Shown piece by piece: positions 2,473-48,571 of a stretch of DNA of 64,000 nucleotides. The position numbers and the translations under genes were made by a program. Where the stretch lies: the NCBI GenBank assembly GCA_030632085.1, contig DAOVJY010000003.1, forward strand, positions 23,809 through 87,808. The letters are read 5' to 3'. Position 1 is the first letter of the stretch. The number at the start of each line of letters is the position of its first letter. The notes under the pieces are model-generated. The model was not told where the DNA came from and did no database searches. It was given only the letters and a program-made list of their open reading frames with translations. The DNA comes from Candidatus Omnitrophota bacterium. GTDB lineage: Bacteria; Omnitrophota; Gorgyraeia; JAGLLT01.

Positions 2473-2565
2473 GGAGAGGTGCCTGAGTGGCCGAAAGGAG
2501 CCGCCTGCTAAGCGGTTGTTCCGTTACAAGCGGAACCCTGGGTTCGAATCCCAGCCTCTCCGCCA
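2473..2565 (+). tRNA. tRNA-Ser (anticodon GCU), long variable arm
   Basis: The cloverleaf is readable: acceptor GGAGAGG/CCTCTCC, anticodon loop CTGCTAA, long extra arm, T-arm GGTTCGAATCC, then CCA. This tRNA is the attachment site of the island. Confidence 0.85.
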
Positions 2566-2709
2566 GTGTTTTTAGCATACTTTAAAATCTCTTCACAAAC
2601 ACACCGAATTCATCATAACCTCTATATTCTTCAAGCACATATAACATCATTTAATAGCAGGCAACATCAGTTATTAACATAGCTGTATTGCCTATTTTTT
2701 TGTATTAAT

Positions 2710-2946
2710 GTGGTGAAAATGTGGTGGAATTTGAAATATTCAATTGATTTTCCTTTTGGATTTTTTTTGTATATATGGGTAGATGTTATCTTTATCAAAG
2801 AGAGCACCAAGGCCATTTTGGTTATGTTTGATAATAAAAAAGCATGGTTTCCAAAAGCCTGGATTGTGAGAATTAAGCACGACAAAGACAGCAATAAGGC
2901 GAAGATTAAAATATCTGAATATTATTGGGCTAAAAAGTTCGAATAA
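2710..2946 (+). CDS. hypothetical small protein (island cargo)
   Basis: ORF of 78 aa with no recognisable motif. Confidence 0.3.
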   Translation: MVKMWWNLKYSIDFPFGFFLYIWVDVIFIKESTKAILVMFDNKKAWFPKAWIVRIKHDKDSNKAKIKISEYYWAKKFE

Positions 2947-3045
2947 TAAGCCAAAAAATCTTTGATTTTTATCAAAAAATATGCTATCTTGAACACAGAT
3001 AAAAAAAGAAGCTCGTCTATTAATTGTTAGAAGAAAGAATAAATT

Positions 3046-3813
3046 ATGAATTTAATTAAAATTTTTATAGTAATATTCGGGATTTTATCAATCATAGGGA
3101 TTATTGTAGCTATATTGTGGGCTATCAAATCCCCACCATTAATATCAAAATTAAATTTATCTTCAACCCAAATGAATATATTTATCAATATTATTATCAT
3201 TTTTGTCATGGTCTTAACAATACTAATAATCATAACTTATTCTAATCAGCAAATTATTGAAAACCAAAAATCAACAAAAGAATATATTGAAGCCTTAAAA
3301 ACAACCACGCAAGAACGAATATCTGAAGCTAAGAAAATTACAGACTCGCAGCTTCTCAAGATGGATGAGCAAATTAAAACAATCCAAAATGAAACAAATC
3401 GCCAGATACGGATAGAAGAAAAATGGACGAATATTAAAAGGAAGCAATTGATAGAATCTTTAATTGAAGAAATCAAACAAAACCAAAGCATTTATAGTAG
3501 GCTCGAAAAAGATTTGGAAGAAGATCCTGTCAAATCTAACTTCCAAAATTTTATTACTGTTAGTTTAGAAAAATGTTTGTCTGATTCCCCCATTGATAAT
3601 GAAGAAATAAACCACCATATATTAGGTTTGTATTATTGGATAAAAGTACATGACAACAAGTTGACTGCCTCTAGAACGCCCAGCATAACATCTGAATCAC
3701 TAAAAGGTATTCTTGGGGCAGTTGTAAAAAATTATAAAGGAAATGAAAAAAGCTATACTGGCTTAGTAAATTTATTAAGCGAATATATAAAAACAATAGA
3801 AATAAAAGAATAA
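3046..3813 (+). CDS. membrane-anchored coiled-coil hypothetical protein
   Basis: Two N-terminal TM helices are followed by a long charged, heptad-like region (EYIEALKTTTQERISEAKK...). Confidence 0.5.
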   Translation: MNLIKIFIVIFGILSIIGIIVAILWAIKSPPLISKLNLSSTQMNIFINIIIIFVMVLTILIIITYSNQQIIENQKSTKEYIEALKTTTQERISEAKKITDSQLLKMDEQIKTIQNETNRQIRIEEKWTNIKRKQLIESLIEEIKQNQSIYSRLEKDLEEDPVKSNFQNFITVSLEKCLSDSPIDNEEINHHILGLYYWIKVHDNKLTASRTPSITSESLKGILGAVVKNYKGNEKSYTGLVNLLSEYIKTIEIKE

Positions 3814-3895
3814 AAAACCTCTAACAATTTCATCCACCTGACCATTACCCTCGTCGCTTAGCGTTGCGTGTCCCGGCGGGTGATGTTGACGTTAT

Positions 3896-4498
3896 ATGAA
3901 AGAGAAAATAATGAAGAATATAAAGATTATAAGCTTAATAATTGCAATCATAGCAATGATACTACTTTTACACTGCAATATTAGCGATAAAGAAAGTTTA
4001 TATACCAGCATAGGGGGTACTTTCATTGGGTTTTTGGGAGCTTTTCTAATATATCAAGTAGGTATTATGATTGATGAAAAGCGGAAAAAAGAATTGGAAG
4101 AAAAAAACACTAAATATATATACCAACTTTATAAAATGGAATTAGAAATGAATATTAGCCACATAAATGGTTTGATTAATAAAAGATGGACACCTTTTTA
4201 TAAATTGAAGACTATAACCAGAGATAAATTATGGGGTGAATTAGCAAGCTATTCCAAAGATTTAAATCTGATGCAAAAACTCAATATTATCTATGGCGAA
4301 TTTGAACTAATAAATAATAAATTTGACATTATGAATTCTGTAAGAATACATCAAAAAAATACTATAAATCAGGCTGAACAAGAACAATTGGGCAAGGAGC
4401 TTGGAGAACAACTCGAAGGGTGCATTGGTTTAGGCAAAAACGTTATTCCTATAATCCAAGAAGGCATAGAAATTTTAAATCAACAAATAAAAAGATAA
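3896..4498 (+). CDS. membrane-anchored hypothetical protein
   Basis: An N-terminal TM segment IISLIIAIIAMILLL and a second helix are followed by a soluble charged domain. Confidence 0.5.
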   Translation: MKEKIMKNIKIISLIIAIIAMILLLHCNISDKESLYTSIGGTFIGFLGAFLIYQVGIMIDEKRKKELEEKNTKYIYQLYKMELEMNISHINGLINKRWTPFYKLKTITRDKLWGELASYSKDLNLMQKLNIIYGEFELINNKFDIMNSVRIHQKNTINQAEQEQLGKELGEQLEGCIGLGKNVIPIIQEGIEILNQQIKR

Positions 4499-4601
4499 CC
4501 ATATAACAAGTCAATGCACCCGACTTTTTCTCGCCGCTTCGCTCTGGGAAAAGCTGGTAATTTCCAGCGTTAGATGAAAAATATAATAACAGAGATTTGA
4601 T

Positions 4602-5459
4602 ATGGCCTATTTAATGCATATTGGTTTTGATAATACTTCTCGGCTTTGTAGAAATGTATACTACTTTGAATATAAAGGAATTCGGTATAAATTAATTCAA
4701 AATAACATAAGAAAATGGTGCGATGTTCTTTTGACGATAATACATGAAAGCAATAACAAGGTAGATCAAAATAAAATATATATGAATGCATCGGAATTTT
4801 TAAGTGCATTGGGTTGGGAAAATGAATCAAGGGTAAAATTGAGACATTTAGGTGGACCAGGAATACCTGATAATTATAAACTTAAAAATGCAAAATGTAG
4901 GTCATTTAGCTTTCCCGAAGTACCATTTGTAGGATATATAATAGGATATAATATCTGTGTGATTCCAAAAATTGAGACAGAAGAGCAAAGAAATGCTCTT
5001 ATGCTTTTTCGAGAAGCTTTTAGCTCTAATAATAACTATCTAGCATTCTTATTTTATTGGCAAGTGTTGGAAGTGGCGAAGGGTGACGCAATTGGATGGG
5101 TAAATAAAACACTCAAGAAAAATAGAAATAAAATTAGATTATTAAATGATGAAATAGAAAGAGTGCCATTAAATGGTAAAAAACTCGGGAATTATTTATA
5201 TGAAGATTGTCGTAATGCAATTGCACATATAAAACGTAAAAAATATGGACAAACTAAAATAAAACTTGACACCCTAGATGATAATAGCAGAATTGCAATA
5301 AGCACTCTGGTAATTAGAGAATTTGCAAGATATTATATTAAAAGTAGACTAGGCCTTCAAAAGAATATGTATTTAGTGCGAAAAAATGGGAAAGGGTTTC
5401 CATTTTATGCAAATGAAGAATATACAAAACACAATAGATGCAAGATAGCATATAAATGA
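4602..5459 (+). CDS. HEPN-motif protein (putative Abi/RNase-like), hypothetical
   Basis: The C-terminal region carries Rx4H (YEDCRNAIAHIK), which fits R-N-x-x-x-H of HEPN RNases. The family assignment rests on this motif only. Confidence 0.45.
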   Translation: MAYLMHIGFDNTSRLCRNVYYFEYKGIRYKLIQNNIRKWCDVLLTIIHESNNKVDQNKIYMNASEFLSALGWENESRVKLRHLGGPGIPDNYKLKNAKCRSFSFPEVPFVGYIIGYNICVIPKIETEEQRNALMLFREAFSSNNNYLAFLFYWQVLEVAKGDAIGWVNKTLKKNRNKIRLLNDEIERVPLNGKKLGNYLYEDCRNAIAHIKRKKYGQTKIKLDTLDDNSRIAISTLVIREFARYYIKSRLGLQKNMYLVRKNGKGFPFYANEEYTKHNRCKIAYK

Positions 5460-5519
5460 TTAGGGTTTCATTAAATGCGAAAGAAAAAACGGCAGTAATA
5501 ACTAAGAACATCTAATAAT

Positions 5520-6125
5520 TTGCTCCAACATTTGATTTTGAACGTTAGCTATCAACTATATGGTGTCATCGGAGATAAAGATATGAATGTGCCTAATTTA
5601 GAAAGAGTAATAGAAACTTTTATTCCAATCACAATACCCAACGAAGCAACGTCGTTACAAATTTGGCAACATTATTTGAATATTCTTAGGTCAAAAGTAG
5701 AACCATTAGTAAAAGATTTGATGCAAAGAAGACTCATTGATTGGTATTCATTTCTAGTCCATAGCAGGCAAAGCGGTGTTCCTATAAGTGAGGATGATAA
5801 GGGTATCTACGTACATTTGAGAGTAGAACTTTCCGCATTAGCAAGTGAGCAAGAATTACGGAAACACCTCCCTCCTTTTTGTCGAATGACACAAAAGATG
5901 GTGACACCAAAACCTCCTTCACTAGATACCATTGATATACAAGCGTTAAGGGATGAAAAAATTGAGCAAGGGTGGAAGGTTTTAGGCGAAGCATCCGAAT
6001 GGGTGTTGCGGATGCTGAATTCCCATAGCCCAAATAAACCAGTTCCAGCACAAAATGTGGCCCAGTTTTTGCACTACATTGGAAATCAATTATTTATCAA
6101 AGCTGTTCAAATTCCTATGCCGTGA
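5520..6125 (+). CDS. hypothetical protein (start possibly at Met 5583)
   Basis: ORF of 201 aa. It is GC-richer than its neighbours and has no recognisable motif. Confidence 0.4.
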   Translation: MLQHLILNVSYQLYGVIGDKDMNVPNLERVIETFIPITIPNEATSLQIWQHYLNILRSKVEPLVKDLMQRRLIDWYSFLVHSRQSGVPISEDDKGIYVHLRVELSALASEQELRKHLPPFCRMTQKMVTPKPPSLDTIDIQALRDEKIEQGWKVLGEASEWVLRMLNSHSPNKPVPAQNVAQFLHYIGNQLFIKAVQIPMP

Positions 6126-6224
6126 ATGGGGAAGATATATTTAATTAAGGCACCCAACAACTCCTTGCAGTCGGTCTCGCCATCGCTCAATGGTTGAGTT
6201 CGGCCGTTAGCCGAAAATAAGAAC

Positions 6225-6812
6225 ATGAGCACAACCGACATACTGACCTTATTAGCAATAATTCTAAGTGCGATCGCAGTTGGATTTGCGGCCTATCAAG
6301 CAATTCTGAATCGAAAGGCTTTGGTAGCAGCAAGGAAATCAATTGAAATGTCTACTAGAACAAGACACATCGAAATGTTACCTAAGGCAGGTTTCGCTAT
6401 TCACGTAGATATGAAATTATCGAATTGGATATCTGATTTGAGTAAGGTAATTGAATTATCGCAACAGGCTATGGGTAACAAAGATGACGAATTACTTAAG
6501 GAATTAGCAGGGAAAGGCTTAAAGTCACCTGATCATTTAGTTGATAAATTCATGTATGAGAAAGCACCACCTTGGTTGTCCGAAATCTATATTAGTTCAG
6601 CGCAATTTTACTATGATGCAAAAGCACCGCAAGTTGCGCTTTGGGGATTTTCATCTGAAGCCGGCAATTATTCATATATACCTAGTTTTATTGAGCGGTG
6701 CGAGGATTCGATTAATCATATTCGTCAGTTTAAAAGTTATTTAGATGATATTGTACCAAGAGCCTATCTTGAAACACCGGCCAGCATAAATGATGATAAA
6801 TTCATCGGCTAA
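6225..6812 (+). CDS. membrane-anchored hypothetical protein
   Basis: An N-terminal TM helix LTLLAIILSAIAVGFAAY is followed by a soluble domain. Confidence 0.45.
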   Translation: MSTTDILTLLAIILSAIAVGFAAYQAILNRKALVAARKSIEMSTRTRHIEMLPKAGFAIHVDMKLSNWISDLSKVIELSQQAMGNKDDELLKELAGKGLKSPDHLVDKFMYEKAPPWLSEIYISSAQFYYDAKAPQVALWGFSSEAGNYSYIPSFIERCEDSINHIRQFKSYLDDIVPRAYLETPASINDDKFIG

Positions 6813-6939
6813 CAAATGGCTGAACAACCTGACGGAAGGTTACTGTAATTATGAATAAGATAAATCGCTGGGGTAGAGGTGCTTCCGTAGCTGGCCATAC
6901 GTTATGAGTAAGAGGCAGTGCCCTTTTAAAGAAAAAAAC

Positions 6940-6975
6940 TTGACTTTTATCTAATTATAGCGTAATGTACATTAC
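6940..6975 (+). promoter_or_regulatory. sigma70-like promoter (TTGACT -N17- TAATGT) overlapped by a perfect 14-bp palindrome, GTAATGTACATTAC (likely operator)
   Basis: TTGACT at 6940-6945 is followed by a 17-nt spacer and TAATGT at 6963-6968. The palindrome at 6962-6975 is self-complementary. Confidence 0.45.
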
Positions 6976-7029
6976 AGAAATAAAAGTGGTGCGTTCGAAG
7001 GGGGAACCTCCACGTTAAAAAAAGTAAAA

Positions 7030-7066
7030 CCTTCATAGCTTTTTGCTATGAGGGTTTTTTGTTTTT
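7030..7066 (+). terminator. intrinsic terminator in the leader, 48 nt upstream of the RadC-N/MTase/OLD operon
   Basis: A 10-bp stem CCTTCATAGC/GCTATGAGGG with loop TTTTT is followed by TTTTTTGTTTTT. Confidence 0.6.
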
Positions 7067-7114
7067 ACAGAACAATATTTTCTGTTGAGATTTTAAAGGA
7101 AAGGTGGTAAAATT

Positions 7115-7405
7115 ATGCCAAAGATAAAAGATTTACCAAAAGACCAAAGACCAAGAGAAAAATTATTGAAATATGGGCCAGAGTCTTTGCTCGACAAAGA
7201 ACTTTTGGCTATCTTAATCGGACACGGGCTTAAGGGCAAATCTGCCATAGAAATGGCAGAAGAATTATTAACAGAGTATAAAGACCTCAAAGGGTTAGCA
7301 GGGAAAAGATTAGATGGGTTTATGAAAATTAAGGGCATAAAAGAAGCAAAAATTATTAAAATCGCTACTGCATTTGAAATAGCAAAACGAATTTATTTTA
7401 CATAA
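7115..7405 (+). CDS. RadC N-terminal HhH domain protein (UPF0758 N-terminal region only; no JAB/MPN domain)
   Basis: IKDLPKDQRPREKLLKYGPESLLDKELLAILIGHGLKGKSAIEMAEELL...IKGI..AK matches the conserved N-terminal HhH region of RadC/YicR. The ORF ends at 96 aa without the HNHPSG-containing JAB domain. Strong RBS AAGGAAAGGTGG. Confidence 0.7.
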   Translation: MPKIKDLPKDQRPREKLLKYGPESLLDKELLAILIGHGLKGKSAIEMAEELLTEYKDLKGLAGKRLDGFMKIKGIKEAKIIKIATAFEIAKRIYFT

Positions 7406-9874
7406 ATGAATATGTCAAAAAAAGAAAACAAAACGACAATAACCGATCCATTTCAAAATAAAAAGCATATCAATTATGCTCTTGTGGAATCTACGCGTCC
7501 GATGATGTATAAAGCTCTAAAATATTGGGGCAAAAAGCCGCACAATATTTTTAGAAAGTACATCGAAAATTATACAGAGAAAAATGAGATAGTACTTGAC
7601 GCTTTTGCGGGAAGCGGTATTGCCCCATTGGAAGCAATACAGGCAAATAGAAAGGCTGTTGCGATAGATCTCAATCCTATATCCACCTTTATGATTGAAA
7701 TACTTGCTAAGCCTCTTAATTATTCAAAGTTCAGAAAATATTACAGCGAAATTTTAACAAAACTTAGCGAGGAAGAAAGAAAATTAGGGGTTTTTATTAC
7801 TAAATGTGAAAAATGTGGAAGCACTGCTAGGGTAATAGGTATTCATTGGAATGGCGATACGCCAATACTTATAAGATATGAATGTCCATGCACAAAAGGA
7901 AACCAAGGCAAAAATCCTGATAATTTTGATATCCAAATTATTAAGAAATCAGAGAAATTAAAAATTCCTTATTGGTATCCGCAAGATGAGTTTCCAAAAA
8001 CAGATTTTTTCAAATCAGTTCGAAGGGGAATTGGTGATCAATATTATAAGCTTTGGACCAAGAGAACGCTTTATTTGCTATCATTTTTGTATAAAGAAAT
8101 TGAGGATATTGATGATGAAGAAATAAAAGATTTTTTGAAATTTGCTTTTATTTCAATGATTCACCTTGTCTCAAATATGGTTTCAGCAAGAAGACCAAAA
8201 AGCAAAAGACCAGATTCTGGTAGTTGGGGAAGACCAGCATTTATTTTGCCCAAAAGACACATGGAACAAAATCCAGTTATTTTGTTTCAAAGAGCTGTTG
8301 AAGATAGGCAAGGCGTCATAAAAGCAAAAAAATCATCAGAAAAATTACTTGCAAACAAGGTAAAAATAACAAAAAACTTTCAAGAATTAGCTAACGACAA
8401 AAAAGATAAAAATTTACTCATTTTGACGATTGACACTCTGGATTTATCAAAAAATATTCCAGAAAACAGCATTGATTATGTTATAACAGATCCGCCCTAT
8501 GGTGGACTAATCCAATACTTTAGCTTGAGCAGTCTTTGGGCAATCTGGCTAAAGCATAATAACAAAAAATTTGAAATTCCCTATGAGGATGAGATAACTA
8601 TTGAACACAAAAAGGATTTTGAACGATATCATAATCTTCTCACTAAAGCATTGCGCGAAATTTATAAAGTCCTCAAACCCGGGCACTACTTAACTCTCAC
8701 TTTTCACAACAGAGAAATTAATGTTTGGAACTCTGTTATTAAGGCTGGTGCGTATTCAGGATTTGTTTTTGAAAAAATTTTATATCAACCAAATAAACGA
8801 GCTTCGGAGGCAGGAGTTGCTATGCCTTACGGTAGCGCAATAAGCGATTATTATTTGCGATTTAAGAAACCTGAAAAAGCGGGTGTGTCTGATCATCAAA
8901 AAATGGATAAAGAAGAATACGAAAGAGTTGTCGTCAAAGCCACTAAAGATATTATTGCATTAAGAAGTGAACCAACAGAAATGACTTTTATTTTGAACGG
9001 TATTTATACCGAGTTATTTTCAACAGGAAGATTTTTTGAGGGTAGCCACGACGATATTGTAAATATTCTTAAAGAAAATATCGGAAAGGTATTTGTTCTT
9101 ATTGAAAACAAGGAAGGCAAACTCGGGCCCAAATGGTGGTTAAAAAATCCAGAGGATATGCTTTTCAAACAAGTACCTTTATCAGATAGAATTGAAAAAG
9201 TAGTGCTTGATATGTTGCGTGGAAATATTAAAGTTACTTTTGATGAAATTCTACAAAAATTATTTATCACTTTCCCGAACGGGTTAACACCTGACGCAAA
9301 GGGAGTTATAGAAGTATTGAAAGAATATGCAACGACGACTGGAGATGGTCGGTGGCGATATAAACCAGAAGTAAATTATAGAGATTCTGAGCACAGCGAA
9401 ATGATTTACTATTTATCCGAAATCGGCAAAAAGGCAGGCTATAAGGTTTGGATTGGGAGTAAAGAGCAGGGCGATACTTTTAAAGATGAGAAACTTTCAA
9501 AATATTGTACTGTGCTAAATCTTAAACTTTCCGGATTTTCCGATAAAGAACTTCGCCGAATCGCAATGATAGATGTCCTTTGGTGTGACGATACTTCTGT
9601 TAAATATGTTTTTGAGATTGAAAATAGTACAAGTATTACATCTGCGATAGAAAGAGCTTCGCATATTCCGGAAGAGTACGATGTAAAAAGATTTATTGTT
9701 ATACCAGAAGAAAGACAAAAAATGCTTGAGAGAAAAATGAATGAGCCGATGTTTCAAGAAGGGTATAATAAATATAAATGGCAAACTATTCATTATGACG
9801 CATTGAAAGATTTTTATAATCTTCACAAGGGCGGCAAAACACTTAAACGCGATGATTTGTCTAACTTAAAATAA
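7406..9874 (+). CDS. DNA methyltransferase (amino-MTase, motif I then TRD/zinc-ribbon then DPPY; alpha-like order) with a roughly 350-aa C-terminal extension
   Basis: Motif X/I VLDAFAGSGIAPLEAIQANRKAVAIDLNP. Cys4 zinc ribbon CEKCGS...ECPC. Motif IV ITDPPYGG, with LKPGHYLTLTFHN after it. The C-terminal region holds a possible PD-(D/E)xK-like stretch, IDVLWCDD...YVFEIENS. Confidence 0.75.
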   Translation: MNMSKKENKTTITDPFQNKKHINYALVESTRPMMYKALKYWGKKPHNIFRKYIENYTEKNEIVLDAFAGSGIAPLEAIQANRKAVAIDLNPISTFMIEILAKPLNYSKFRKYYSEILTKLSEEERKLGVFITKCEKCGSTARVIGIHWNGDTPILIRYECPCTKGNQGKNPDNFDIQIIKKSEKLKIPYWYPQDEFPKTDFFKSVRRGIGDQYYKLWTKRTLYLLSFLYKEIEDIDDEEIKDFLKFAFISMIHLVSNMVSARRPKSKRPDSGSWGRPAFILPKRHMEQNPVILFQRAVEDRQGVIKAKKSSEKLLANKVKITKNFQELANDKKDKNLLILTIDTLDLSKNIPENSIDYVITDPPYGGLIQYFSLSSLWAIWLKHNNKKFEIPYEDEITIEHKKDFERYHNLLTKALREIYKVLKPGHYLTLTFHNREINVWNSVIKAGAYSGFVFEKILYQPNKRASEAGVAMPYGSAISDYYLRFKKPEKAGVSDHQKMDKEEYERVVVKATKDIIALRSEPTEMTFILNGIYTELFSTGRFFEGSHDDIVNILKENIGKVFVLIENKEGKLGPKWWLKNPEDMLFKQVPLSDRIEKVVLDMLRGNIKVTFDEILQKLFITFPNGLTPDAKGVIEVLKEYATTTGDGRWRYKPEVNYRDSEHSEMIYYLSEIGKKAGYKVWIGSKEQGDTFKDEKLSKYCTVLNLKLSGFSDKELRRIAMIDVLWCDDTSVKYVFEIENSTSITSAIERASHIPEEYDVKRFIVIPEERQKMLERKMNEPMFQEGYNKYKWQTIHYDALKDFYNLHKGGKTLKRDDLSNLK

Positions 9875-9878
9875 ATTT

Positions 9879-10721
9879 ATGTTAAAAAAGAATCCTCAAA
9901 AAAAAGCAAAATACGACAAACGTAACATCCTCAACGATTTAACTGGTAGGGATTGGTTGTTATTAACCAAAAGCGTTTGGATAAGCGAAAAGTGTGCTGA
10001 TGATAAGTTCGCGTTTCAACATCCAGCTCCTTTTTTAATCAATGATATTAAAAAACTGATTAGATTTTTTACTAAAAAAAATATGACAGTGCTTGATCCG
10101 TTTTGCGGTTCAGGGACAACCTTAGTCGCAAGCGCGCAAGAGAATAGAAAAGGAATCGGAATAGATTTAAGTAAAAAATATTGCCAAATGAGCCGAAAAC
10201 GCTTGCAAGATTTAAAGTTGAAAAAAAATCAACAAGTAGTTTGCGGGGATTCTCTCAAAAAAATATCTCAAATTAAAGGGAAGATTGATTATTGCGTAAC
10301 TTCGCCACCGTACCACAATATTTTAAGACATAATGGCGGTGGGTTGAGGGAGGCCAAAGCAAAAAATATTAGAAATGGTGCAAGAATTGGTGTTGAATAT
10401 TATTCCGATGACAAACGGGATTTAGGTAATCAGGCGCAATATAAAGATTTTCTCGCGCTATTAAAAAAAGTAATGATAGAGATTTATAAAAAATTGAGGG
10501 ACAAAAAATACTCCTCAATAATTATTAGTGATTTTACTGTAAATAAAAAAGAAACAAATGCAAGCGGTGATGTAATTCGGTTCATGCAAAACATAGGTTT
10601 TAGTTTTGAAGGTATGGTTGTGCTTGTTCAAGACAATAAGCCCCTTTATCCTTTTGGTTATCCTTATGCCTACAAAATGAATCACCATCATCAATATATT
10701 TTGAATTTTAGAAAACTATGA
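9879..10721 (+). CDS. small DNA methyltransferase (SPPY motif; N4-cytosine/N6-adenine amino-MTase), paralogous to the N-terminal module of the upstream MTase
   Basis: HPAPFLINDIKKLIRFFTKKNMTVLDPFCGSGTTLVASAQENRKGIGIDLS (motifs X-I), then CVTSPPYHN (motif IV). Overlaps or abuts the neighbouring genes. Confidence 0.75.
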   Translation: MLKKNPQKKAKYDKRNILNDLTGRDWLLLTKSVWISEKCADDKFAFQHPAPFLINDIKKLIRFFTKKNMTVLDPFCGSGTTLVASAQENRKGIGIDLSKKYCQMSRKRLQDLKLKKNQQVVCGDSLKKISQIKGKIDYCVTSPPYHNILRHNGGGLREAKAKNIRNGARIGVEYYSDDKRDLGNQAQYKDFLALLKKVMIEIYKKLRDKKYSSIIISDFTVNKKETNASGDVIRFMQNIGFSFEGMVVLVQDNKPLYPFGYPYAYKMNHHHQYILNFRKL

Positions 10722-12382
10722 ACAGAGTTTTACTAACAAAATTAAAAATAAAAAATTTAGGACCCATTAAAGAAGATGAAATTTCTTTTAATAATTTTAC
10801 ATTCTTTGTTGGAAGAAATAATGCTGGGAAGTCACATTATCTGAAAGCAATTGAATTATTACTTTCTACAGGAATAAAAAAAGAACAAATTTCTAAATTG
10901 CAACACGACAAGAATCAGCCGATTGTTATTGAAGGGGATTTTAAAGGTGTTAGTGATTTTACCGATTTGGTAACAGTAAGTAATCACAGACAAGCAATTG
11001 AGAGCGCAATAAAAGATGGGATGTTCAAAATTGTTTCTGTGTTAGATTCTGAATCAGGCGCACAGCTGGGTATTTATAAAGAGGATGGTTCTTTGCATAA
11101 TCCGGGTGGGTTCTCTGGTAATCTATTGAAAGTTTTACCGGATATCATATCAATCCCCGCGACAGCAGATACTGTACAAGAGCTAGCTGATAAATCAACT
11201 ACCGCTTTAGGAAAACTAAAAAAAGAAGTAATGAGTTCCTTTTTTCAAGAGCTAGCAAGCAAAACAAAAACTGCTTTATCAGACTTAGATGATTTTTTGC
11301 ACAGTCAAGATGAGGGGGTTCGTTCTAAAGCGATAGCTAAATTTGAAATAGGATTAAAAGAAGAATTCACGGGAGAATTTAGTGATATTGTACCTTCAGT
11401 TGAGTTTGGTTTGCCAGATGAGGCTGTAATTGCAAAGGGAATGAAAATTTTACTTGATGATGGATATAAAACAGAGGTCGAGCAAAAAGGACATGGTTTA
11501 CAAAGAGCAACATTATTAGCTCTTTTGAAATTATTAGCAAAAAGTGGGAAAAAATACCAAGACCGCCCTGCCCCCATATTTTTAATTGGAGAGTTAGAAT
11601 CTTTTCTTCACCCCTATGCTCAGCGCGAGATGGCAAATGCTTTAATTAAGATGATGGAACGGTATCAGATAGTAACAACTACACATTCACCATTTATCGT
11701 TACTCCAGCAACTATTGAAGGTTACCGCAGAGTTAGAAAAACCAAGGAGAATGGCGCCAAAAATATCGCCCTAGATCCTTCAAATGTTGATGTGAGTTTA
11801 ATCAAACGACATCTTGAGCGCCGTGGAAATCTTGAGGGGTTGTTTGCCGATAGGGTTATTTTGATCGAGGGCAGCCACGATGAAAATTTCTACGAGCGTC
11901 TAAAAACAATTTTTAATATTTCTTCTCCACAGGGAAAATTTACACTTTTCATCAAGGCCGACGGCAAGAAACAATTAAGACTTGCTAGAAAGTTTTATCA
12001 ACAGATGAGTTTTGATGATATTGCTGTAATATGCGATTTAGATTATCTCTTTAGTCGCGATGTAGAGTATCTACTCGAGAAGTTGGGATTAGAAAAAGAG
12101 TTGCCTAATAAATTTCGTGAACATATTGACTGGCAAAACGATAGAGAGTCAAAGTTAGAGTATATTGTGGAAAAATTAAGTGAGAAAGGAGAGCCTAATG
12201 GATTTGGTGACCTAATCCAAGGTTTACAGGACAAAAGAATTTTTGTCTTACGTCACGGTGCACCAGAAATGTATTACAAAAATAACAAAGGAGAGAAGAA
12301 TGGCTGGGTTCATCTCAATTCACAAAATGATTTGTTAGAGGTGGAGTATTTAAAGAAATTGATAAAATTAGTTTTAATGTAA
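10718..12382 (+). CDS. OLD-family ATP-dependent nuclease (ABC-type ATPase + C-terminal Toprim)
   Basis: Walker A GRNNAGKSH. ABC signature/Walker B region IFLIGELESFLHP. Toprim glutamate ILIEGSHDE and DxD (VICDLDY). Overlaps the upstream MTase by 4 nt. Confidence 0.75.
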   Translation: MNRVLLTKLKIKNLGPIKEDEISFNNFTFFVGRNNAGKSHYLKAIELLLSTGIKKEQISKLQHDKNQPIVIEGDFKGVSDFTDLVTVSNHRQAIESAIKDGMFKIVSVLDSESGAQLGIYKEDGSLHNPGGFSGNLLKVLPDIISIPATADTVQELADKSTTALGKLKKEVMSSFFQELASKTKTALSDLDDFLHSQDEGVRSKAIAKFEIGLKEEFTGEFSDIVPSVEFGLPDEAVIAKGMKILLDDGYKTEVEQKGHGLQRATLLALLKLLAKSGKKYQDRPAPIFLIGELESFLHPYAQREMANALIKMMERYQIVTTTHSPFIVTPATIEGYRRVRKTKENGAKNIALDPSNVDVSLIKRHLERRGNLEGLFADRVILIEGSHDENFYERLKTIFNISSPQGKFTLFIKADGKKQLRLARKFYQQMSFDDIAVICDLDYLFSRDVEYLLEKLGLEKELPNKFREHIDWQNDRESKLEYIVEKLSEKGEPNGFGDLIQGLQDKRIFVLRHGAPEMYYKNNKGEKNGWVHLNSQNDLLEVEYLKKLIKLVLM

Positions 12383-12550
12383 CCATCCTCACACACCCAC
12401 TATTTTGTATACCGTCGCCTTCTGAAAAAATTTTGGCAAAGCCAAAAGGCAGGCAGGCAAAAAGAAAAGGAGATCCGATGGCGGATGAATTTTTGCCCAT
12501 TTTCCAGTTCTACGAAGTAAAAAGCCGAAAAAATAATAAAAAAACTACTT

Positions 12551-12890
12551 GACAAATAGGTTAAGTAATGATATAGTTAAATTAACAAGGTAAAAGAGTT
12601 CTTTCAAATGACTATTGATATTGGAAGTAAATTAAAGGCGAAAAGAGTGCAGATGAATTTCACTCAGTTGGAACTTGCAACAAAGGTTGGAGTTAGCGAG
12701 AGTTACATCTGCCAGATTGAGAATGGGAAGATGGTATCGATCAAAAAGCTTGAGCAAATAGCAAACGCGGTAGGGTGCAAAGCAAAAGATCTTCTCTAGG
12801 ATATTTTTTTAATTTGAAACTTGACAAATAAGTTAACTAACATATATTTTTTGCCCTATAACTTTACAAATAGGTTAAGTAAGGAGGTGA
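12551..12890. promoter_or_regulatory. three copies of an operator-like motif, TTGACAAATAGGTTAAGTAA, around the XRE regulator gene
   Basis: Copies at about 12551-12570, 12821-12841 (variant ...AAGTTAACTAA) and 12866-12886. Each includes a -35-like TTGACA or TTTACA. Confidence 0.5.
12608..12799 (+). CDS. XRE-family HTH transcriptional regulator (cI/Cro-like) of the island
   Basis: QLELATKVGVSESYICQIENGK is a typical XRE helix-turn-helix. The gene is flanked by iterated operator-like repeats. Confidence 0.7.
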   Translation: MTIDIGSKLKAKRVQMNFTQLELATKVGVSESYICQIENGKMVSIKKLEQIANAVGCKAKDLL

Positions 12891-12895
12891 GAAAA

Positions 12896-13056
12896 TGATA
12901 GAGATCAAATTTAGTAGGCAGCAATTGACAGAATTGGATAAAGAAAGATACGCGCGAATTCTTAAGAAAGTTATTACTCAAATGTCGAACCTGAATAAAA
13001 GTGCTAGCTTACCAAAGAAAATTATATTCACGGAACTAAAAATTATTTTTATGTAA
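12896..13056 (+). CDS. small hypothetical protein (53 aa)
   Basis: ATG follows an AAGGAGGTG RBS. It is below the ORF-track size cutoff and was read manually. Confidence 0.35.
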
Positions 13057-13073
13057 GAAAAGAGAGAAATAAA

Positions 13074-13247
13074 GTGCTAGAAAGCGAAATTTTATTTGTA
13101 GAAGATATTTCTAGATTGTTTAGCATTTCACAGAATACCATTCAAAGGAAAAAATGGAGAAAACAAACAGGAATGCCTTTACATAAAATAGGCAAGAAAT
13201 TGTGTGGGTTTAAGCGCGAAATTGAGGAGTGGGCTAAGTCTAAATGA
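13074..13247 (+). CDS. xis: excisionase / AlpA-like HTH DNA-binding protein (Xis)
   Basis: GTG start, 58 codons. ISRLFSISQNTIQRKKWRK...GFKREIEEW is Xis/HTH_17-like. Its stop overlaps the integrase start (ATGA). Confidence 0.55.
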   Translation: MLESEILFVEDISRLFSISQNTIQRKKWRKQTGMPLHKIGKKLCGFKREIEEWAKSK

Positions 13248-14344
13248 GAAGAAAACTCCCAGGTGTCAGAGAAATAATTAAGGGGGATAAATACGAAGTC
13301 AACTATGTAGTTGCTGGCAGGAGATATCAGTATCGCATTAATGCCGCATCTCTTACTGAAGCACACAACAAGAAATTAGAAGATATGGCAGATAAGCGTA
13401 AAAATATATCTACGCTATTAGATAATGGAGAACGTCTTAATACCGGATTTTCTGACGCCTGGGAGAGATTATACGCTGATTTAATTGCGGATAACCTACC
13501 CAGAAAGACAATACAGCATTACGCCAAGACTTATAGTAGGATGTTTAATGAGTTTATAAATTTAAGATTTCCGGATTTGATGAATTTCGGTCAGCTGAGC
13601 TTACCGTTCTTCCGGGAATATAAAAATTACTATGTTAATAATCTCAATAGACCTAGGGGCTGGAGAGCAGAGTTGATATTTGTCAAAGCGATAATAAAGC
13701 GCCTCTACGCCTTGGGTTATTGCAGCAAAGAGCTCATAGACAGCTTAAAGGAGATAAAGAAACCCCGGGCTGTCAAAAAGGAACACCCCCATATACCTAA
13801 TAGCAAAATAAAGGAATTGTTTCAATATATAAAAAATAGCAGGCCAGATTATTACTATCCTTTGTATTTTATTAGTAGGACAGGCAGAAGAATTAATGAG
13901 ACAACGCTTATAGAGCGGAGAGATGTAGAATGGAAAGGGTTTAGCCCTGCAAGGCTTAATATAAGAGCCGAGACTACAAAAACGAAACAAAATGCTCCTC
14001 TTGCAAATCTTGACCAAGAATTAAAGCAGGTTATAAGCGAAGCATATAAGGCAGGTTTAAAATGCAAGGAGCCTTATTTATTTCTTAATATGTTTAACAG
14101 AAGATGCACGCCCAGCAAGGTAAGGGAATGTCTTAAAGGAGCAAGTAAGCAGATTTTGGGAGTGGAAATTACTCCTCACTATTTCAGGCATAGGTTTTTA
14201 ACAGAATGCGGCAAAGCCAATGTACCTATCGTGGATGTTATGGCTATTTCTGGCATTAAGGATATAAATGTTATAGTTAATTATTATAGTCACAGTACAG
14301 TAGAAGGACAGACAAAAGTGCTTGAAGTTAGCAGGGTTTGGTGA
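13244..14344 (+). CDS. int: tyrosine recombinase / phage-type integrase
   Basis: The C-terminal catalytic region reads HYFRHRFLTE...VNYYSH (R, H-x-x-R and Y). It sits next to the attR repeat. Confidence 0.8.
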   Translation: MRRKLPGVREIIKGDKYEVNYVVAGRRYQYRINAASLTEAHNKKLEDMADKRKNISTLLDNGERLNTGFSDAWERLYADLIADNLPRKTIQHYAKTYSRMFNEFINLRFPDLMNFGQLSLPFFREYKNYYVNNLNRPRGWRAELIFVKAIIKRLYALGYCSKELIDSLKEIKKPRAVKKEHPHIPNSKIKELFQYIKNSRPDYYYPLYFISRTGRRINETTLIERRDVEWKGFSPARLNIRAETTKTKQNAPLANLDQELKQVISEAYKAGLKCKEPYLFLNMFNRRCTPSKVRECLKGASKQILGVEITPHYFRHRFLTECGKANVPIVDVMAISGIKDINVIVNYYSHSTVEGQTKVLEVSRVW

Positions 14345-14407
14345 TACAATTATGACGAATTTATGTGGTGGAGGATGTGGTGAAAGGAACATTTTGAATA
14401 TAAAAGT

Positions 14408-14431
14408 GTTCGAATCCCAGCCTCTCCGCCA
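14408..14431. repeat. attR: 24-bp direct repeat of the tRNA-Ser 3' end
   Basis: Identical to 2542-2565. Confidence 0.8.
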
Positions 14432-14480
14432 ATATAGCAAAGAGCCTATAGCATAGAGCGTAGGACAAAGATAGATTGCG

Positions 14481-14495
14481 CAGCCTCTCCGCCAG
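14481..14495. repeat. second partial repeat of the tRNA-Ser 3' end (15 bp, CAGCCTCTCCGCCAG), possibly the remnant of an earlier integration
   Basis: Matches 2552-2566, including the first base after the tRNA. Confidence 0.5.
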
Positions 14496-22288: not shown

Positions 22289-22492
22289 CTTGCATGAATA
22301 CGCAACTTACAGAATGTAATGAAGGTAAGTTGCTGTGTGAATGCATCCCGCACCAGACGAAGTCTTGGTGGCGGGATTGTTTTGGCTGGAGTAGAAAATT
22401 CACAGATGCGCCCATAGCTTCCCCCTTAGCTAAAGCTTCGGAGGACAAGACGCTATGGCTGGAGTAGAAAATTCATAGATGCGCCCATAGCT
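22277..22492. repeat. three copies of the tRNA-Arg 5' end (ATGCGCCCATAGCT), including a 36-bp tandem duplication, upstream of tRNA-Arg
   Basis: ATGCGCCCATAGCT occurs at 22277-22290, 22406-22419 and 22479-22492. The last copy is the real tRNA 5' end. GGCTGGAGTAGAAAATTCA(C/T)AGATGCGCCCATAGCT occurs at 22384-22419 and 22457-22492. Confidence 0.7.
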
Positions 22493-22557
22493 CAATTGGA
22501 CAGAGTAGCGGTCTACGAAACCGTTGGTTCCCCGTTCGAATCGGGGTGGGCGCGCCA
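22481..22557 (+). tRNA. tRNA-Arg (anticodon ACG)
   Basis: Acceptor GCGCCCA/TGGGCGC, D-arm GCTCAATTGGACAGAGT, anticodon loop CTACGAA, T-arm CCCCGTTCGAATCGGGG, then CCA. Confidence 0.8.
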
Positions 22558-22653
22558 CCGTACCATTCGCAAAATATTGCTCAGGTACGGTGCTTGTCCA
22601 GTACCTGATGTGGTACTGGGCACGCATTGCATTAATTTGGTATAGGGTACGCT

Positions 22654-23157
22654 TTGAAATTACTAAATGGTACGGTGGTCCCGTACCCGAAAGCATTTGA
22701 GATGGATGATAAATTTTATATACAGGAGGCCATCAAAGAAGCCATAAAGGCTTTTGAAGCTGATGAGGTGCCGGTGGGGGCGGTTATCGTTTATAAGAAT
22801 AGGATAATTGCCAGGGCGCACAATCAAATAAAGACCTTAAAAGATCCCACTGCTCACGCCGAAATGATAGCTATCACCCAGGCGGCTAGCTATTTAAAAA
22901 ACGAGCGGCTTCTTAATACGGCTATGTATGTAACTCTTGAGCCCTGCGCCATGTGCGCGGGGGCTTTAGTTTTAGCCAGAATAAAGAAATTAGTTTTTGG
23001 TGCTAAAGATGAGAAAGCCGGTGCGTGCGGTTCGGTAATTGATTTGACTAATAACAAAAAGCTCAATCATAACTTAATTGTAAAAAGCGGTGTCTATGAA
23101 GATGGGTGCCGCAAAATCTTACAGGAATTCTTTAAAAAGAAGAGAAAGCAGAATTAG
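22654..23157 (+). CDS. tadA: tRNA-specific adenosine deaminase TadA (start may be Met at 22702)
   Basis: Carries the CDA zinc motifs HAEMIAI and PCAMCAGAL. It lies directly downstream of its substrate tRNA-Arg(ACG). Confidence 0.8.
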   Translation: MKLLNGTVVPYPKAFEMDDKFYIQEAIKEAIKAFEADEVPVGAVIVYKNRIIARAHNQIKTLKDPTAHAEMIAITQAASYLKNERLLNTAMYVTLEPCAMCAGALVLARIKKLVFGAKDEKAGACGSVIDLTNNKKLNHNLIVKSGVYEDGCRKILQEFFKKKRKQN

Positions 23158-23335
23158 CTATTTAATAAACATTAGTAGATTGTAATTAGCAGTTAGTTGA
23201 CAGTAAGTCATTTAACGATTTTATTTTGCTATTAGCTATAAGCTATTAGCTATAAGCTAATTAATAATACTTAAGATCTCTCACCCGTCTTTGACGAGTT
23301 CGAGATCCAATTTGTTTGTTAAAATTGTACAAATT

Positions 23336-23423
23336 GGAGAGATGCGAGAGCGGTTGAATCGGCACGCTTGGAAAGCGTGTGTACTTAACGGTACCCTGGG
23401 TTCGAATCCCAGTCTCTCCGCCA
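23336..23423 (+). tRNA. tRNA-Ser (anticodon GGA), long variable arm
   Basis: Acceptor GGAGAGA/TCTCTCC, anticodon loop TTGGAAA, long extra arm, T-arm GGGTTCGAATCCC, then CCA. Confidence 0.8.
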
Positions 23424-39830: not shown

Positions 39831-39906
39831 TCCTCGGTGGCTCAGTTGGTAGAGCGGGTGACTGTTAATCACTAGGTCGTAGGTTCGAGTCCTACCCGGG
39901 GAGCCA
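39831..39906 (+). tRNA. tRNA-Asn (anticodon GUU)
   Basis: Acceptor TCCTCGG/CCGGGGA, D-arm GCTCAGTTGGTAGAGC, anticodon loop CTGTTAA, T-arm GTAGGTTCGAGTCCTAC, then GCCA. Confidence 0.8.
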
Positions 39907-41118: not shown

Positions 41119-41239
41119 TAATGGGTTTATGTGAAAATGGATAAAACAAAGCTTAAAACAATAAAATCCCTCACTGCCCAATTTGAACAATTCCTCAAAG
41201 CCTGCAAAGGCGAAGGCGACACTACCATAAATGATGTCC

Positions 41240-44825: not shown

Positions 44826-44837
44826 TGGCAGAATTAT

Positions 44838-46089: not shown

Positions 46090-46104
46090 GATTAGGAGAT
46101 TACC

Positions 46105-48507: not shown

Positions 48508-48571
48508 TATACAGAGAAATACAAAGATAAAGAGAGAGGCACCTTTTTATTTATAAATAGGAGACAAAAAA

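What the first reader, a model, noticed from the sequence alone, without database searches (positions are those of the whole stretch)
2473..14495. tRNA-Ser(GCU)-integrated AT-rich island with intact xis-int module and a second, shorter att remnant
The 24-bp direct repeat of the tRNA 3' end (2542-2565 = 14408-14431) delimits about 11.9 kb of low-GC DNA. It ends with Xis (13074-13247) and a tyrosine integrase (13244-14344) whose starts overlap by ATGA. A further 15-bp copy of the tRNA end plus one flanking base lies 50 bp further on (14481-14495). This suggests an older integration at the same site, or a tandem array that has decayed.
Basis: seen in the sequence. Interest (0 to 1): 0.55.

Follow-up and report, generated by a model that had tools for sequence, protein, structure and literature searches.

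The report
Defence island inserted in tRNA-Ser gene
This is an ordinary but very cleanly defined 11.9-kb mobile island that a lambda-type integrase inserted into the end of a serine tRNA gene of an uncultivated Omnitrophota bacterium; it carries anti-phage genes, and a short scar of an earlier insertion lies beside it.

Summary
tRNA-Ser(GCU) lies at 2473-2565. An exact 24-bp copy of its 3' end lies at 14408-14431. A third 14+1-nt copy lies at 14481-14495. Chance expects 0.01 such matches in the window.

The 11,866-bp interval is a site-specific integrative island. Its recombination module runs HTH regulator, 53-aa ORF, 57-aa Xis-like protein, 366-aa tyrosine integrase. This module, paired TGTGGTGRR arm-type repeats at both ends, and a tRNA-Ser 3'-end core recur in six independent Omnitrophota elements with 70-81% identical integrases. 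One of these is a complete element in tRNA-Ser(GGA).

Cargo differs completely between elements. Here it is a two-methylase restriction-modification unit, an OLD-family nuclease and five unknown ORFs. No phage or conjugation genes are present.

"AT-rich" is overstated: the island is 33.9% GC against 38.2% for the rest of the window.

The third copy is best read as the scar of an older integration. In a relative that is 92% identical, homology to the right flank begins at that copy. True tandem arrays occur in this family.

No empty site or circular junction was found, so mobility is inferred and not shown. In relatives the two flanks were never seen joined, so a rearrangement at this tRNA remains possible.

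Verdict: new member of a known kind, modest interest.

The parts
2473..2565 (+). tRNA-Ser(GCU), intact. Its last 24 nt are now supplied by the island (regenerated target).
   Evidence: ARAGORN; Rfam RF00005 at 55.6 bits.
2542..2565 (+). attL core: a 24-bp identity block covering the T-loop, the 3' T-stem, the 3' acceptor strand and CCA.
   Evidence: Exact repeat of 14408-14431.
2566..2708 (+). Conserved non-coding left end of the island (P' side of attP), including the CATCAGTTAT motif at 2665-2674.
   Evidence: 79% identical to the left end in L066. Aligns with the left ends of L060, L061 and L075.
2709..2728 (+). Two direct arm-type repeats, TGTGGTGAA (2709-2717) and TGTGGTGGA (2720-2728): the inferred P' arm integrase-binding sites.
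   Evidence: The motif occurs 6 times in the window against 0.72 expected, and 4 of them lie at the island ends. The position is conserved in related elements.
3046..6812 (+). Five cargo ORFs of unknown function: 3046-3813 (predicted membrane protein), 3896-4498, 4602-5459 (MauJ domain), 5520-6125 and 6225-6812.
   Evidence: Pfam hits only MauJ at 5.7e-19. There are no PADLOC, PHROGs or NCBIfam hits. None is shared with related elements.
7115..7405 (+). 96-aa ORF holding only the RadC/UPF0758 N-terminal domain. It directly abuts the next gene. Related elements carry a full-length RadC.
   Evidence: PF20582 at 2.1e-27. Full RadC is present in L060 and L061/L062.
7406..9874 (+). 822-aa fusion of a DNA methyltransferase and a restriction endonuclease (N6_N4_Mtase plus an NmeDI_C-type nuclease).
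   Evidence: Pfam; PADLOC MTase_II, PglX-like and REase_II hits; precomputed PF27126 NmeDI_C.
9879..10721 (+). Second DNA methyltransferase, 280 aa.
   Evidence: PF01555 at 2.3e-27; PADLOC MTase_II at 4.2e-35.
10718..12382 (+). OLD-family ATPase-TOPRIM nuclease, 554 aa, with no partner helicase. Its start overlaps the methylase stop.
   Evidence: PADLOC Old at 8.8e-71; AAA_15 at 8.1e-31 and OLD-like_TOPRIM.
12547..12885 (+). Control region with three copies of a 25-nt repeat ACTTGACAAATAGGTTAAGTAA.. (12547-12571, 12819-12843, 12861-12885). Two copies coincide with near-consensus promoters in front of the HTH gene and of the 53aa-xis-int genes.
   Evidence: Repeat family D2. Promoter scan gives TTGACA-17-TATAGT at 12549-12577 and TTGACA-16-TATATT at 12821-12848, each 11 of 12.
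12608..12799 (+). Cro/CI-type HTH regulator, 63 aa.
   Evidence: HTH_3 at 3.9e-13; PHROGs repressor families. It holds the same position in related elements.
12895..13056 (+). 53-aa ORF of unknown role, conserved in part of the family.
   Evidence: 53-62% identical ORFs at the same position in L060 and L061-L063.
13074..13247 (+). 57-aa Xis-like protein (HTH_17, the excisionase-type DNA-binding domain).
   Evidence: HTH_17 is weak here (0.0029). It is found in 6 of 7 family members, best 1.4e-08. Orthologues are 70-82% identical and always overlap int.
13244..14344 (+). Tyrosine integrase, 366 aa, with three domains: N-terminal beta-sheet, core-binding and catalytic.
   Evidence: PF00589 at 1.3e-12. 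186 homologues; the source names given among the 120 listed are nearly all Omnitrophota/Omnitrophica. Invariant R215/R216, K246, R315 and Y348, with near-invariant H312. AlphaFold pLDDT 88.7. Foldseek hits XerA, Tn1549 Int and full-length lambda Int.
14364..14384 (+). Two direct arm-type repeats, TGTGGTGGA (14364-14372) and TGTGGTGAA (14376-14384): the inferred P arm, between int and the core.
   Evidence: The block TTATGTGGTGRRRRATGTGGTGRAAGG is conserved in 6 of 6 related right ends.
14408..14431 (+). attR core: the displaced 24-bp fragment of the tRNA 3' end.
14432..14480 (.). 49-bp spacer of unknown origin, presumed to be the residue of an older insert.
   Evidence: No match in the window or in 82 loci. 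Not homologous to the 69-nt spacer at the same place in L073.
14481..14495 (+). Third copy, CAGCCTCTCCGCCA plus G. It is probably what remains of an earlier displaced tRNA 3' end next to the conserved flank.
   Evidence: Homology with L073 (92% nt) starts at 14491.

Best explanation
The interval 2566-14431 is an integrated, non-conjugative, non-phage genomic island of a family specific to Omnitrophota.

Inferred mechanism: the circular form carries an attP. In attP the 24-bp copy of the tRNA-Ser 3' end (the core) is flanked by two pairs of TGTGGTGRR arm-type sites. One pair lies about 24-44 bp upstream, next to int. The other pair lies about 143-163 bp downstream. The three-domain lambda-type tyrosine integrase would bridge the arm and core sites and recombine the core with the 3' end of tRNA-Ser(GCU). 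The island's copy then regenerates the tRNA, and the previous 3' end is pushed to the far junction. The small HTH_17 protein, translationally coupled to int, would act as the excision directionality factor. The Cro/CI-type HTH protein would control the two repeated promoters.

The cargo is anti-phage defence: a restriction-modification unit with two methylases and a fused nuclease, an OLD-family nuclease, and five unknown genes.

The 49-bp spacer plus the 15-nt third copy is the scar of an earlier integration at the same tRNA that the present island pushed outward.

Shown: the repeats, the gene content, and the conservation of module and att layout across the family. Inferred: arm-site binding, the Xis function, regulation, present-day mobility, and the order of events.
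For: - Exact 24-bp repeat and third copy, far above chance.
- The integrase is full length and keeps the family-invariant R, K, HxxR and Y residues. Its confident model has an N-terminal three-stranded sheet plus helix, and its full length aligns with lambda Int.
- TGTGGTGRR is enriched and placed at both ends.
- Six independent elements share the module HTH-(53aa)-Xis-Int, the block TTATGTGGTGRRRRATGTGGTGRAAGG...TTTTGA...AATCCCnnCCTCTCCG, and, where the left end is in hand (window, L060, and the L061/L075/L066 junctions), a homologous left end. They are the window, L060, L061-63, L064/65, L075/76 and L077.
- L060 is a second complete case: a 22-bp repeat with tRNA-Ser(GGA) at one end, spanning 12.3 kb.
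- Cargo is unrelated between elements.
- For the scar: the L073 flank boundary, the tandem array in L075, and orphan cores followed by family left ends in L061 and L066. Published precedent exists for outward-pushed, decaying elements at tRNA sites (bioRxiv 10.1101/2020.12.28.424599; Islander, PMC4383910).
Against: - No empty attB and no attP junction for this element turned up in the one metagenome scan.
- No near-identical copy exists elsewhere; the closest integrase is 81% identical.
- The relatives that share the left flank (L004 at 97% nt, and L007) carry different DNA after the tRNA, not the GH94 gene.
- The relative that shares the right flank (L073) has a promoter and an internally deleted tRNA-Ser there instead of the DUF2007-tRNA arrangement. 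The two flanks have therefore never been seen joined.
- The 49-bp spacer matches nothing.
- The HTH_17 hit of this Xis is below Pfam's cut-off.
- The composition difference is small.
Confidence: 0.8

Rival explanations
1. The right junction is not the native flank of this tRNA. Recombination between two tRNA-Ser-derived sites joined DUF2007-tRNA-Ser(GCU)-island to a different locus. That recombination could be integrase-mediated att x att exchange or homologous exchange between two islands. The other locus would be a second, degenerate tRNA-Ser copy upstream of GH94. On this reading the third copy is the remnant of that other locus, not of an older insertion here.
For: - In L004 (97% nt in the left flank) the tRNA is followed by DUF748 and a YihY/BrkB-type gene. 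These are absent from the 64-kb window.
- DUF748 is a conserved Omnitrophota gene with 1166 homologues.
- In L078/L079 it lies downstream of tRNA-Ser(GGA), with a tRNA-Cys between them, not downstream of GCU.
- In the complete genome CP070655.1 it lies between two tRNA-Ser-like 45-nt motifs next to an integrase fragment.
- L073 shows GH94 preceded by its own promoter and a truncated tRNA-Ser.
- The integrase family uses at least two tRNA-Ser isoacceptors with near-identical cores.
Against: - Only short contigs are available for L004, L007 and L073, so the alternative DNA after the tRNA could simply be other islands at a hot spot.
- No genome shows both parental arrangements.
- Gene order around tRNAs varies between lineages for many reasons.
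Confidence: 0.2
2. The island is an old, fixed insertion that no longer moves. The integrase module is retained but inactive, or used for something else.
For: No attB or attP was found. No near-identical copy was found in other samples. No relative of the integrase was found in viral contigs.
Against: - The 24-bp repeats are identical.
- All four arm sites, the promoters, xis and int are intact and match the family consensus.
- Cargo turnover across the family implies recent activity of the family as a whole.
- The one scan covered only JGI contigs with exact matching, so the negative result is weak.
Confidence: 0.2
3. It is a prophage, a phage satellite or an integrative conjugative element.
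For: It has an integrase-Xis-repressor module of the kind phages use. OLD nucleases are known from phage P2 (own knowledge).
Against: There are no capsid, terminase, portal, tail, replication, relaxase or type IV secretion hits in Pfam, PHROGs or NCBIfam. No relatives were found in IMG/VR. The element is only 11.9 kb.
Confidence: 0.03
4. The repeats are chance matches or assembly artefacts.
For: The source is a metagenome-assembled scaffold.
Against: The shuffles expect 0.01 matches. The same junctions occur in an independent Logan assembly of run SRR13892601 (L002 and L005). The same layout occurs in six other elements from other samples.
Confidence: 0.01

Closest known systems
tRNA-gene genomic islands as defined by Islander (regenerated tDNA plus displaced 3' fragment, tyrosine integrase, crossover in the T-stem/3' region)
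   Same: There is an intact tRNA at one end, a direct 3' fragment at the other and an integrase inside. The identity block covers the T-loop to CCA. Extra tDNA fragments mark older events (PMC4383910).
   Different: The host phylum is Omnitrophota. The integrase is only distantly related to solved or curated ones: its best PDB sequence hit is an archaeal XerA at E=5.7e-4. The integrase lies at the end distal to the tRNA and is transcribed toward the core.
Phage lambda Int/Xis/attP system (heterobivalent integrase with arm-type sites)
   Same: The gene order is xis then int, read toward the core. The integrase has three domains. Repeated arm-type sites lie on both sides of the core. A small Xis overlaps int.
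   Different: There are no phage genes. The target is a tRNA gene. The number and orientation of arm sites differ, with two direct pairs. Host-factor sites are unknown. Binding has not been tested.
Tycheposons of Prochlorococcus (tRNA-targeting tyrosine-recombinase elements with variable cargo)
   Same: The integration module is conserved while the cargo varies. Successive integrations push older elements outward. Partial tRNAs and degraded remnants occur in the same island (bioRxiv 10.1101/2020.12.28.424599).
   Different: No sequence comparison with tycheposon recombinases or their other modules was made, and no replication-gene hit was found in this island. The host phylum and integrase family are different. 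There, each integrase type is tied to one tRNA. Here, close relatives use different tRNA-Ser isoacceptors.
Defence islands / prophage-borne hot spots carrying RM systems and OLD nucleases (for example P2 old)
   Same: The cargo is a restriction-modification unit plus a stand-alone OLD-family ATPase-TOPRIM nuclease. Related elements carry type I RM, Dcm-Vsr, DpnI, HNH and AAA_15 proteins.
   Different: The carrier is a minimal integrative island, not a phage or satellite. Defence activity has not been tested.

Membership tests
tRNA-integrated genomic island (Islander criteria) | Intact tRNA gene at one boundary | tested here: met
   ARAGORN finds tRNA-Ser(GCU) at 2473-2565. Rfam scores it 55.6 bits.
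tRNA-integrated genomic island (Islander criteria) | Displaced fragment of the same tRNA, in direct orientation, at the other boundary | tested here: met
   24/24 identity between 2542-2565 and 14408-14431 on the same strand. Chance expectation is 0.01.
tRNA-integrated genomic island (Islander criteria) | Integrase gene inside the interval | tested here: met
   13244-14344, PF00589 at 1.3e-12.
tRNA-integrated genomic island (Islander criteria) | Absence of the interval from related genomes (empty site) | tested here: inconclusive
   L004 and L007 lack the island after the same tRNA but carry other DNA. L073 has the right flank without the island but with a truncated tRNA. No clean attB was found.
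[quoted passage not shown] | The second unit has its own integrase | tested here: not met
   Only 49 bp lie between the second and third copies, with no ORF. This is a scar, not an array. A true array is seen in L075.
Tyrosine recombinase (Phage_integrase, PF00589) | Catalytic R, K, HxxR, Y | tested here: met
   R215/R216, K246, H312-x-x-R315 and Y348 are invariant or nearly so across 49 homologues. They align with XerA motifs. The usual third His/Trp position could not be assigned.
Heterobivalent lambda-type integrase | Separate N-terminal arm-binding domain | tested here: inconclusive
   The AlphaFold model has a three-stranded sheet plus helix at residues 8-58, joined by a low-confidence linker. 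The Foldseek alignments with full-length lambda Int span 355-389 columns but with rmsd 16-20 A, as expected for a differently posed domain. No Pfam arm-domain hit was found.
Heterobivalent lambda-type integrase | Arm-type repeats in attP, distinct from the core | tested here: met
   TGTGGTGRR pairs lie at 2709-2728 and 14364-14384 and are conserved in position in 6 of 6 elements. Binding itself is not testable here.
Excisionase / recombination directionality factor (HTH_17 type) | Small winged-helix HTH_17 protein encoded next to int | tested here: inconclusive
   This protein scores 18.3 bits against a cut-off of 27. 6 of 7 orthologues hit HTH_17, best 1.4e-08. It always overlaps int. No PDB sequence match was found.
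Excisionase / recombination directionality factor (HTH_17 type) | Stimulates excision and inhibits integration | not testable with these tools
   Needs an in vivo or in vitro recombination assay.
Prophage | Structural and packaging genes | tested here: not met
   PHROGs hits only the regulator and the integrase. No relatives were found in IMG/VR.
Integrative conjugative or mobilizable element | Relaxase, oriT, coupling protein or type IV secretion genes | tested here: not met
   No such Pfam or NCBIfam hits. oriT was not searched.
OLD-family nuclease defence (P2 Old type) | N-terminal ABC-type ATPase plus C-terminal TOPRIM in one protein, no partner helicase | tested here: met
   AAA_15 at 8.1e-31, OLD-like_TOPRIM at 5.5e-07, PADLOC Old at 8.8e-71. 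The neighbours are a methylase and the HTH gene. Anti-phage activity has not been tested.

The most novel reading that the evidence does not exclude
This integrase family acts on the nearly identical 3' ends of several tRNA-Ser isoacceptors (GCU here, GGA in L060). It may thereby do more than shuttle defence cargo. Exchange between occupied tRNA-Ser sites would reshuffle chromosomal flanks in Omnitrophota and leave orphan tRNA-Ser pieces. Examples would be the 15-nt copy here, the promoter-driven acceptor/T-arm minihelix in L073, and the conserved ~45-nt GTTAY..TGCTTAATAGAMTCCCAGCCTCTCCGCCA motif in L061 and in CP070655.1. On this reading the window's right junction is a rearrangement breakpoint, not a simple insertion scar.
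Probability: 0.15. Interest if true: 0.55.

Novelty: new member of a known kind. Interest (0 to 1): 0.3.

Why it matters
The result gives a base-precise map for an integrase family of Omnitrophota, a phylum known almost only from metagenomes and without genetic tools. The map covers the core, four arm-type sites, the Xis-like gene, the regulator and the promoters. Such a defined attP/integrase pair targeting a conserved tRNA-Ser end could serve as an integration tool. It could also serve as a marker for finding variable, defence-rich regions in these genomes. The family comparison shows that tRNA-Ser genes are hot spots where anti-phage cargo is swapped. As biology it follows the well-known pattern of tRNA-targeting islands, so it extends the known range without changing the picture.

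Tried and rejected
- One exact-pattern scan of JGI metagenome contigs for attB, attP and the native empty site (AATCCCAGCCTCTCCGCCARYRTWDY) gave 7 hits. None was the empty site or circular junction of this element. They were other tRNA-Ser genes or other elements.
- The integrase has no relative in viral contigs.
- The genome-collection scan with the upstream NMO gene gave the phylum and two relatives. L006 is not syntenic and L007 ends 82 bp after the tRNA.
- The 49-bp spacer and the L073 spacer were searched against the window and about 1.08 Mb of fetched loci, with no matches.
- Similarity between the third copy's upstream bases and the recurrent TAATAGA..TCCCAGCC motif was considered. It rests on 5 nt plus an indel, so it was not adopted.
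- Minihelix folds of the L073 and L061 remnants have z-scores of only -1.8 and -2.0.
- A profile of the Xis family found no solved structure by sequence.
- The ORF 2710-2946 overlapping the arm sites has no homologues and was not called by the source annotations, so it was treated as spurious.
- The Logan contig L005 ends exactly at base 2565. This could mean a branch in the read graph, from an empty site or from a co-occurring strain. L002 runs through attR unbroken, so this is not evidence of excision.
- Rfam at gathering threshold listed only one tRNA in 1-24000, although ARAGORN finds three. This was not pursued.

Full report
**Observation**

ARAGORN places tRNA-Ser(GCU) at 2473-2565 on the + strand, and Rfam confirms a tRNA there. 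The last 24 nt, GTTCGAATCCCAGCCTCTCCGCCA, recur exactly at 14408-14431, 11,866 bp downstream on the same strand. Forty-nine bases further on, CAGCCTCTCCGCCAG lies at 14481-14495. It repeats the last 14 nt of the tRNA plus a G. The 14-mer, allowing one mismatch, is expected 0.01 times in the window and occurs four times. The fourth match is the end of tRNA-Ser(GGA) at 23410-23423. The island is 33.9% GC against 36.5% for the left flank and 38.2% for the rest of the window. The stretch 34.5-53 kb is equally low. 'AT-rich' is therefore true only in a weak sense.

**Origin**

The window is part of a 349-kb scaffold of a metagenome-assembled genome (ERZ23498525, scaffold_5). An independent Logan assembly of run SRR13892601 reproduces the junction sequences. 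The nearest genomes found through a flanking gene are Candidatus Omnitrophota. The integrase has 186 homologues at E <= 1e-5. The source names given among the 120 listed are nearly all Omnitrophota/Omnitrophica.

**Gene content**

All island genes are on the + strand.

- The left third (3046-6812) holds five ORFs with no informative hits, apart from a MauJ domain.
- An operon-like block follows:
  - a 96-aa ORF holding only the RadC N-terminal domain;
  - an 822-aa methyltransferase fused to an NmeDI_C-type nuclease;
  - a second methyltransferase;
  - an OLD-family ATPase-TOPRIM nuclease (PADLOC Old 8.8e-71).
- The right end holds a Cro/CI-type HTH gene, a 53-aa ORF, the 57-aa ORF and the integrase.
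- A 25-nt repeat occurs three times around the HTH gene. Two copies coincide with 11-of-12 matches to the sigma-70 consensus in front of the HTH gene and of the 53aa-xis-int genes.
- No phage structural, replication or conjugation genes were detected. No relative of the integrase exists in the viral contig collection.

**The integrase and the small protein**

The integrase hits PF00589. It is remote from solved structures by sequence; the best hit is an archaeal XerA at E=5.7e-4. In an alignment of 49 homologues, R215/R216, K246, R315 and Y348 are invariant and H312 nearly so. The AlphaFold model is confident (pLDDT 88.7). It shows an N-terminal three-stranded sheet plus helix (residues 8-58), a helical core-binding domain and the catalytic domain. 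Foldseek returns XerA, Tn1549 Int and full-length lambda Int. The 57-aa protein scores below Pfam's cut-off for HTH_17 by itself. However, six of seven orthologues match that excisionase-type domain (best 1.4e-08), and the gene always overlaps int.

**Family comparison**

This is the strongest evidence. I fetched the surroundings of integrases that are 70-81% identical. Each has the same module: HTH, sometimes the 53-aa ORF, a 56-57-aa Xis-like gene, then Int. Downstream, sometimes after one extra gene, each has the same non-coding block: TTATGTGGTGRRRRATGTGGTGRAAGG, a short TTTTGA-containing spacer, then AATCCCnnCCTCTCCG, which is a tRNA-Ser 3' end.

In the window, the two TGTGGTGRR copies at 14364-14384 have a counterpart pair at 2709-2728, about 145 bp inside the left end. 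The motif occurs six times in the window against 0.72 expected. The left-end sequence itself, including CATCAGTTAT and the arm pair, is homologous in L060, L061, L075 and in a metagenome contig, L066, where it is 79% identical.

L060 is a second complete element. It has tRNA-Ser(GGA), a 22-bp repeat, a 12.3-kb interval and the same end architecture. Cargo is entirely different in every element: type I RM, Dcm-Vsr, DpnI, HNH, AAA_15, NYN and others. Only the recombination module is shared. This is the signature of a family of site-specific integrative islands that trade defence cargo.

**Mechanism**

The following is inferred. Joining the right and left ends reconstructs an attP. In it the 24-bp core is flanked by one arm pair next to int and another about 145 bp on the other side. 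A heterobivalent integrase would bind arm and core sites and exchange strands within the shared tRNA end. Across the family the identity with the tRNA shrinks to the last 14-19 nt, so the crossover probably lies in the 3' T-stem/acceptor part. After integration the island's copy completes the tRNA. The Xis-like protein would direct excision, and the HTH protein would control the repeated promoters. None of these activities was or could be tested here.

**The third copy**

A 2.4-kb contig from another sample (L073) is 92% identical to the window from position 14491 onward, which covers the region upstream of the GH94 gene and the gene itself. Homology begins inside the third copy. Upstream of that point L073 has a different 69-nt spacer. 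Further upstream it has 28 nt identical to the tRNA-Ser(GCU) end, preceded directly by TTATGGAGAG (the first bases of the tRNA) and by a consensus promoter. ARAGORN sees no tRNA there.

The conserved chromosomal flank therefore starts at the third copy. What lies between it and the next tRNA-derived core differs between genomes, as expected for scars of past insertions. The family also shows a true tandem array of two elements with different arm motifs (L075). It shows orphan cores followed by family left ends as well (L061, L066). Published work describes the same behaviour for other tRNA-targeting elements.

I therefore read 14432-14495 as the residue of an earlier integration that the present island pushed outward. 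It is not a tandem island in the strict sense, because no integrase remains. The 49-bp spacer matches nothing available.

**What remains open**

- I found no empty site and no circular junction for this element.
- The two flanks have never been seen joined.
  - L004 is 97% identical up to the last base of the tRNA. It then continues with DUF748 and a YihY-type gene, which are absent from the window.
  - L007 continues with yet another sequence.
  - DUF748 is a conserved Omnitrophota gene. In L078/L079 it lies downstream of tRNA-Ser(GGA), with a tRNA-Cys between them. In a complete genome it sits between two copies of a 45-nt tRNA-Ser-like motif next to an integrase fragment.
- These facts allow a second reading, in which recombination between tRNA-Ser-derived sites rearranged the chromosome here. 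I give that about 0.2.
- Present-day mobility is likely from the intact parts but is not shown.

**Verdict**

It is a well-delimited, probably functional, lambda-type integrative island in tRNA-Ser(GCU), with defence cargo and a scar of an earlier event. It belongs to a previously uncharacterised Omnitrophota integrase family. In kind it is ordinary: a new member of a known class, of modest interest.

Noticed in passing
window 39831-51220: A second island-like region. tRNA-Asn(GTT) at 39831-39906 is followed by 33-34% GC DNA. That DNA holds a large serine recombinase (41240-42787, minus strand), several ORFs with no hits and a NYN-domain ORF (50499-51110). The tRNA-Asn end recurs twice, at 50029-50040 and 51177-51187. 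Each copy is followed by the same ~30-nt hairpin-containing flank, and the two copies bracket the NYN gene.
   Followed up: partly
L073 61-139: Upstream of the GH94 gene in a 92%-identical relative lies a consensus promoter (TTGACA-17-TATAAT). It is followed by TTAT-GGAGAG-TGGGTTCGAATCCCAGCCTCTCCGCCAG. This is a tRNA-Ser(GCU) lacking its D, anticodon and variable arms, and it folds as an acceptor/T-arm minihelix (z = -1.8).
   Followed up: partly
L061 11448-11495; L080 3425-3464 and 6895-6934: A conserved ~45-nt motif, GTTAY..TGCTTAWARGAMTCCCAGCCTCTCCG(C/T)CA, recurs in unrelated Omnitrophota contigs. L066 shares only its 3' part, TAATAGAATCCCAGCCTCTCCGCCA. In the complete genome CP070655.1 two copies flank an integrase fragment, a 552-aa ORF and the conserved DUF748 gene. 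It may be the att side of another element family or a tRNA-Ser pseudogene.
   Followed up: partly
L075 3360-12410: A true tandem array of two related islands. The first has TGTGGTGG arm repeats. The second has a 56%-identical integrase with CTGGTGTTA/TTGGTGTTA arm repeats. The same second motif occurs in metagenome contig L072.
   Followed up: partly
L060 12827-14653: Directly after the attR of the related complete island lies a large serine recombinase gene on the opposite strand. Its 3' end overlaps the arm and core region. This suggests another element abutting the same tRNA-Ser site.
   Followed up: no
L078 8355-8429; L079 949-1023: ARAGORN calls a tRNA-Cys with anticodon ACA (A34) next to tRNA-Arg(ACG), the tRNA adenosine deaminase gene and tRNA-Ser(GGA). 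An ACA anticodon for Cys is unusual.
   Followed up: no
window 14681-20974: The 2097-aa GH94-domain protein gene is 45-48% GC, clearly higher than everything around it (33-40%). In a 48%-identical relative (L074) the gene is split into 950-aa and 1431-aa ORFs.
   Followed up: no
L005 end = window 2565: The Logan contig from run SRR13892601 stops exactly at the last base of the tRNA/core, whereas L002 from the same run crosses attR unbroken. This hints at more than one sequence following the tRNA in that sample, from strain mixture or excision.
   Followed up: no
window 22481-23423: The Rfam gathering-threshold scan of 1-24000 lists only the tRNA at 2473. ARAGORN also reports tRNA-Arg(ACG) at 22481-22557 and tRNA-Ser(GGA) at 23336-23423.
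   Followed up: no
window 7115-7405: The RadC-like ORF keeps only the N-terminal helix-hairpin-helix domain and ends one base before the methylase-nuclease gene. Related islands carry full-length RadC. The defence cargo probably replaced the JAB domain part.
   Followed up: no
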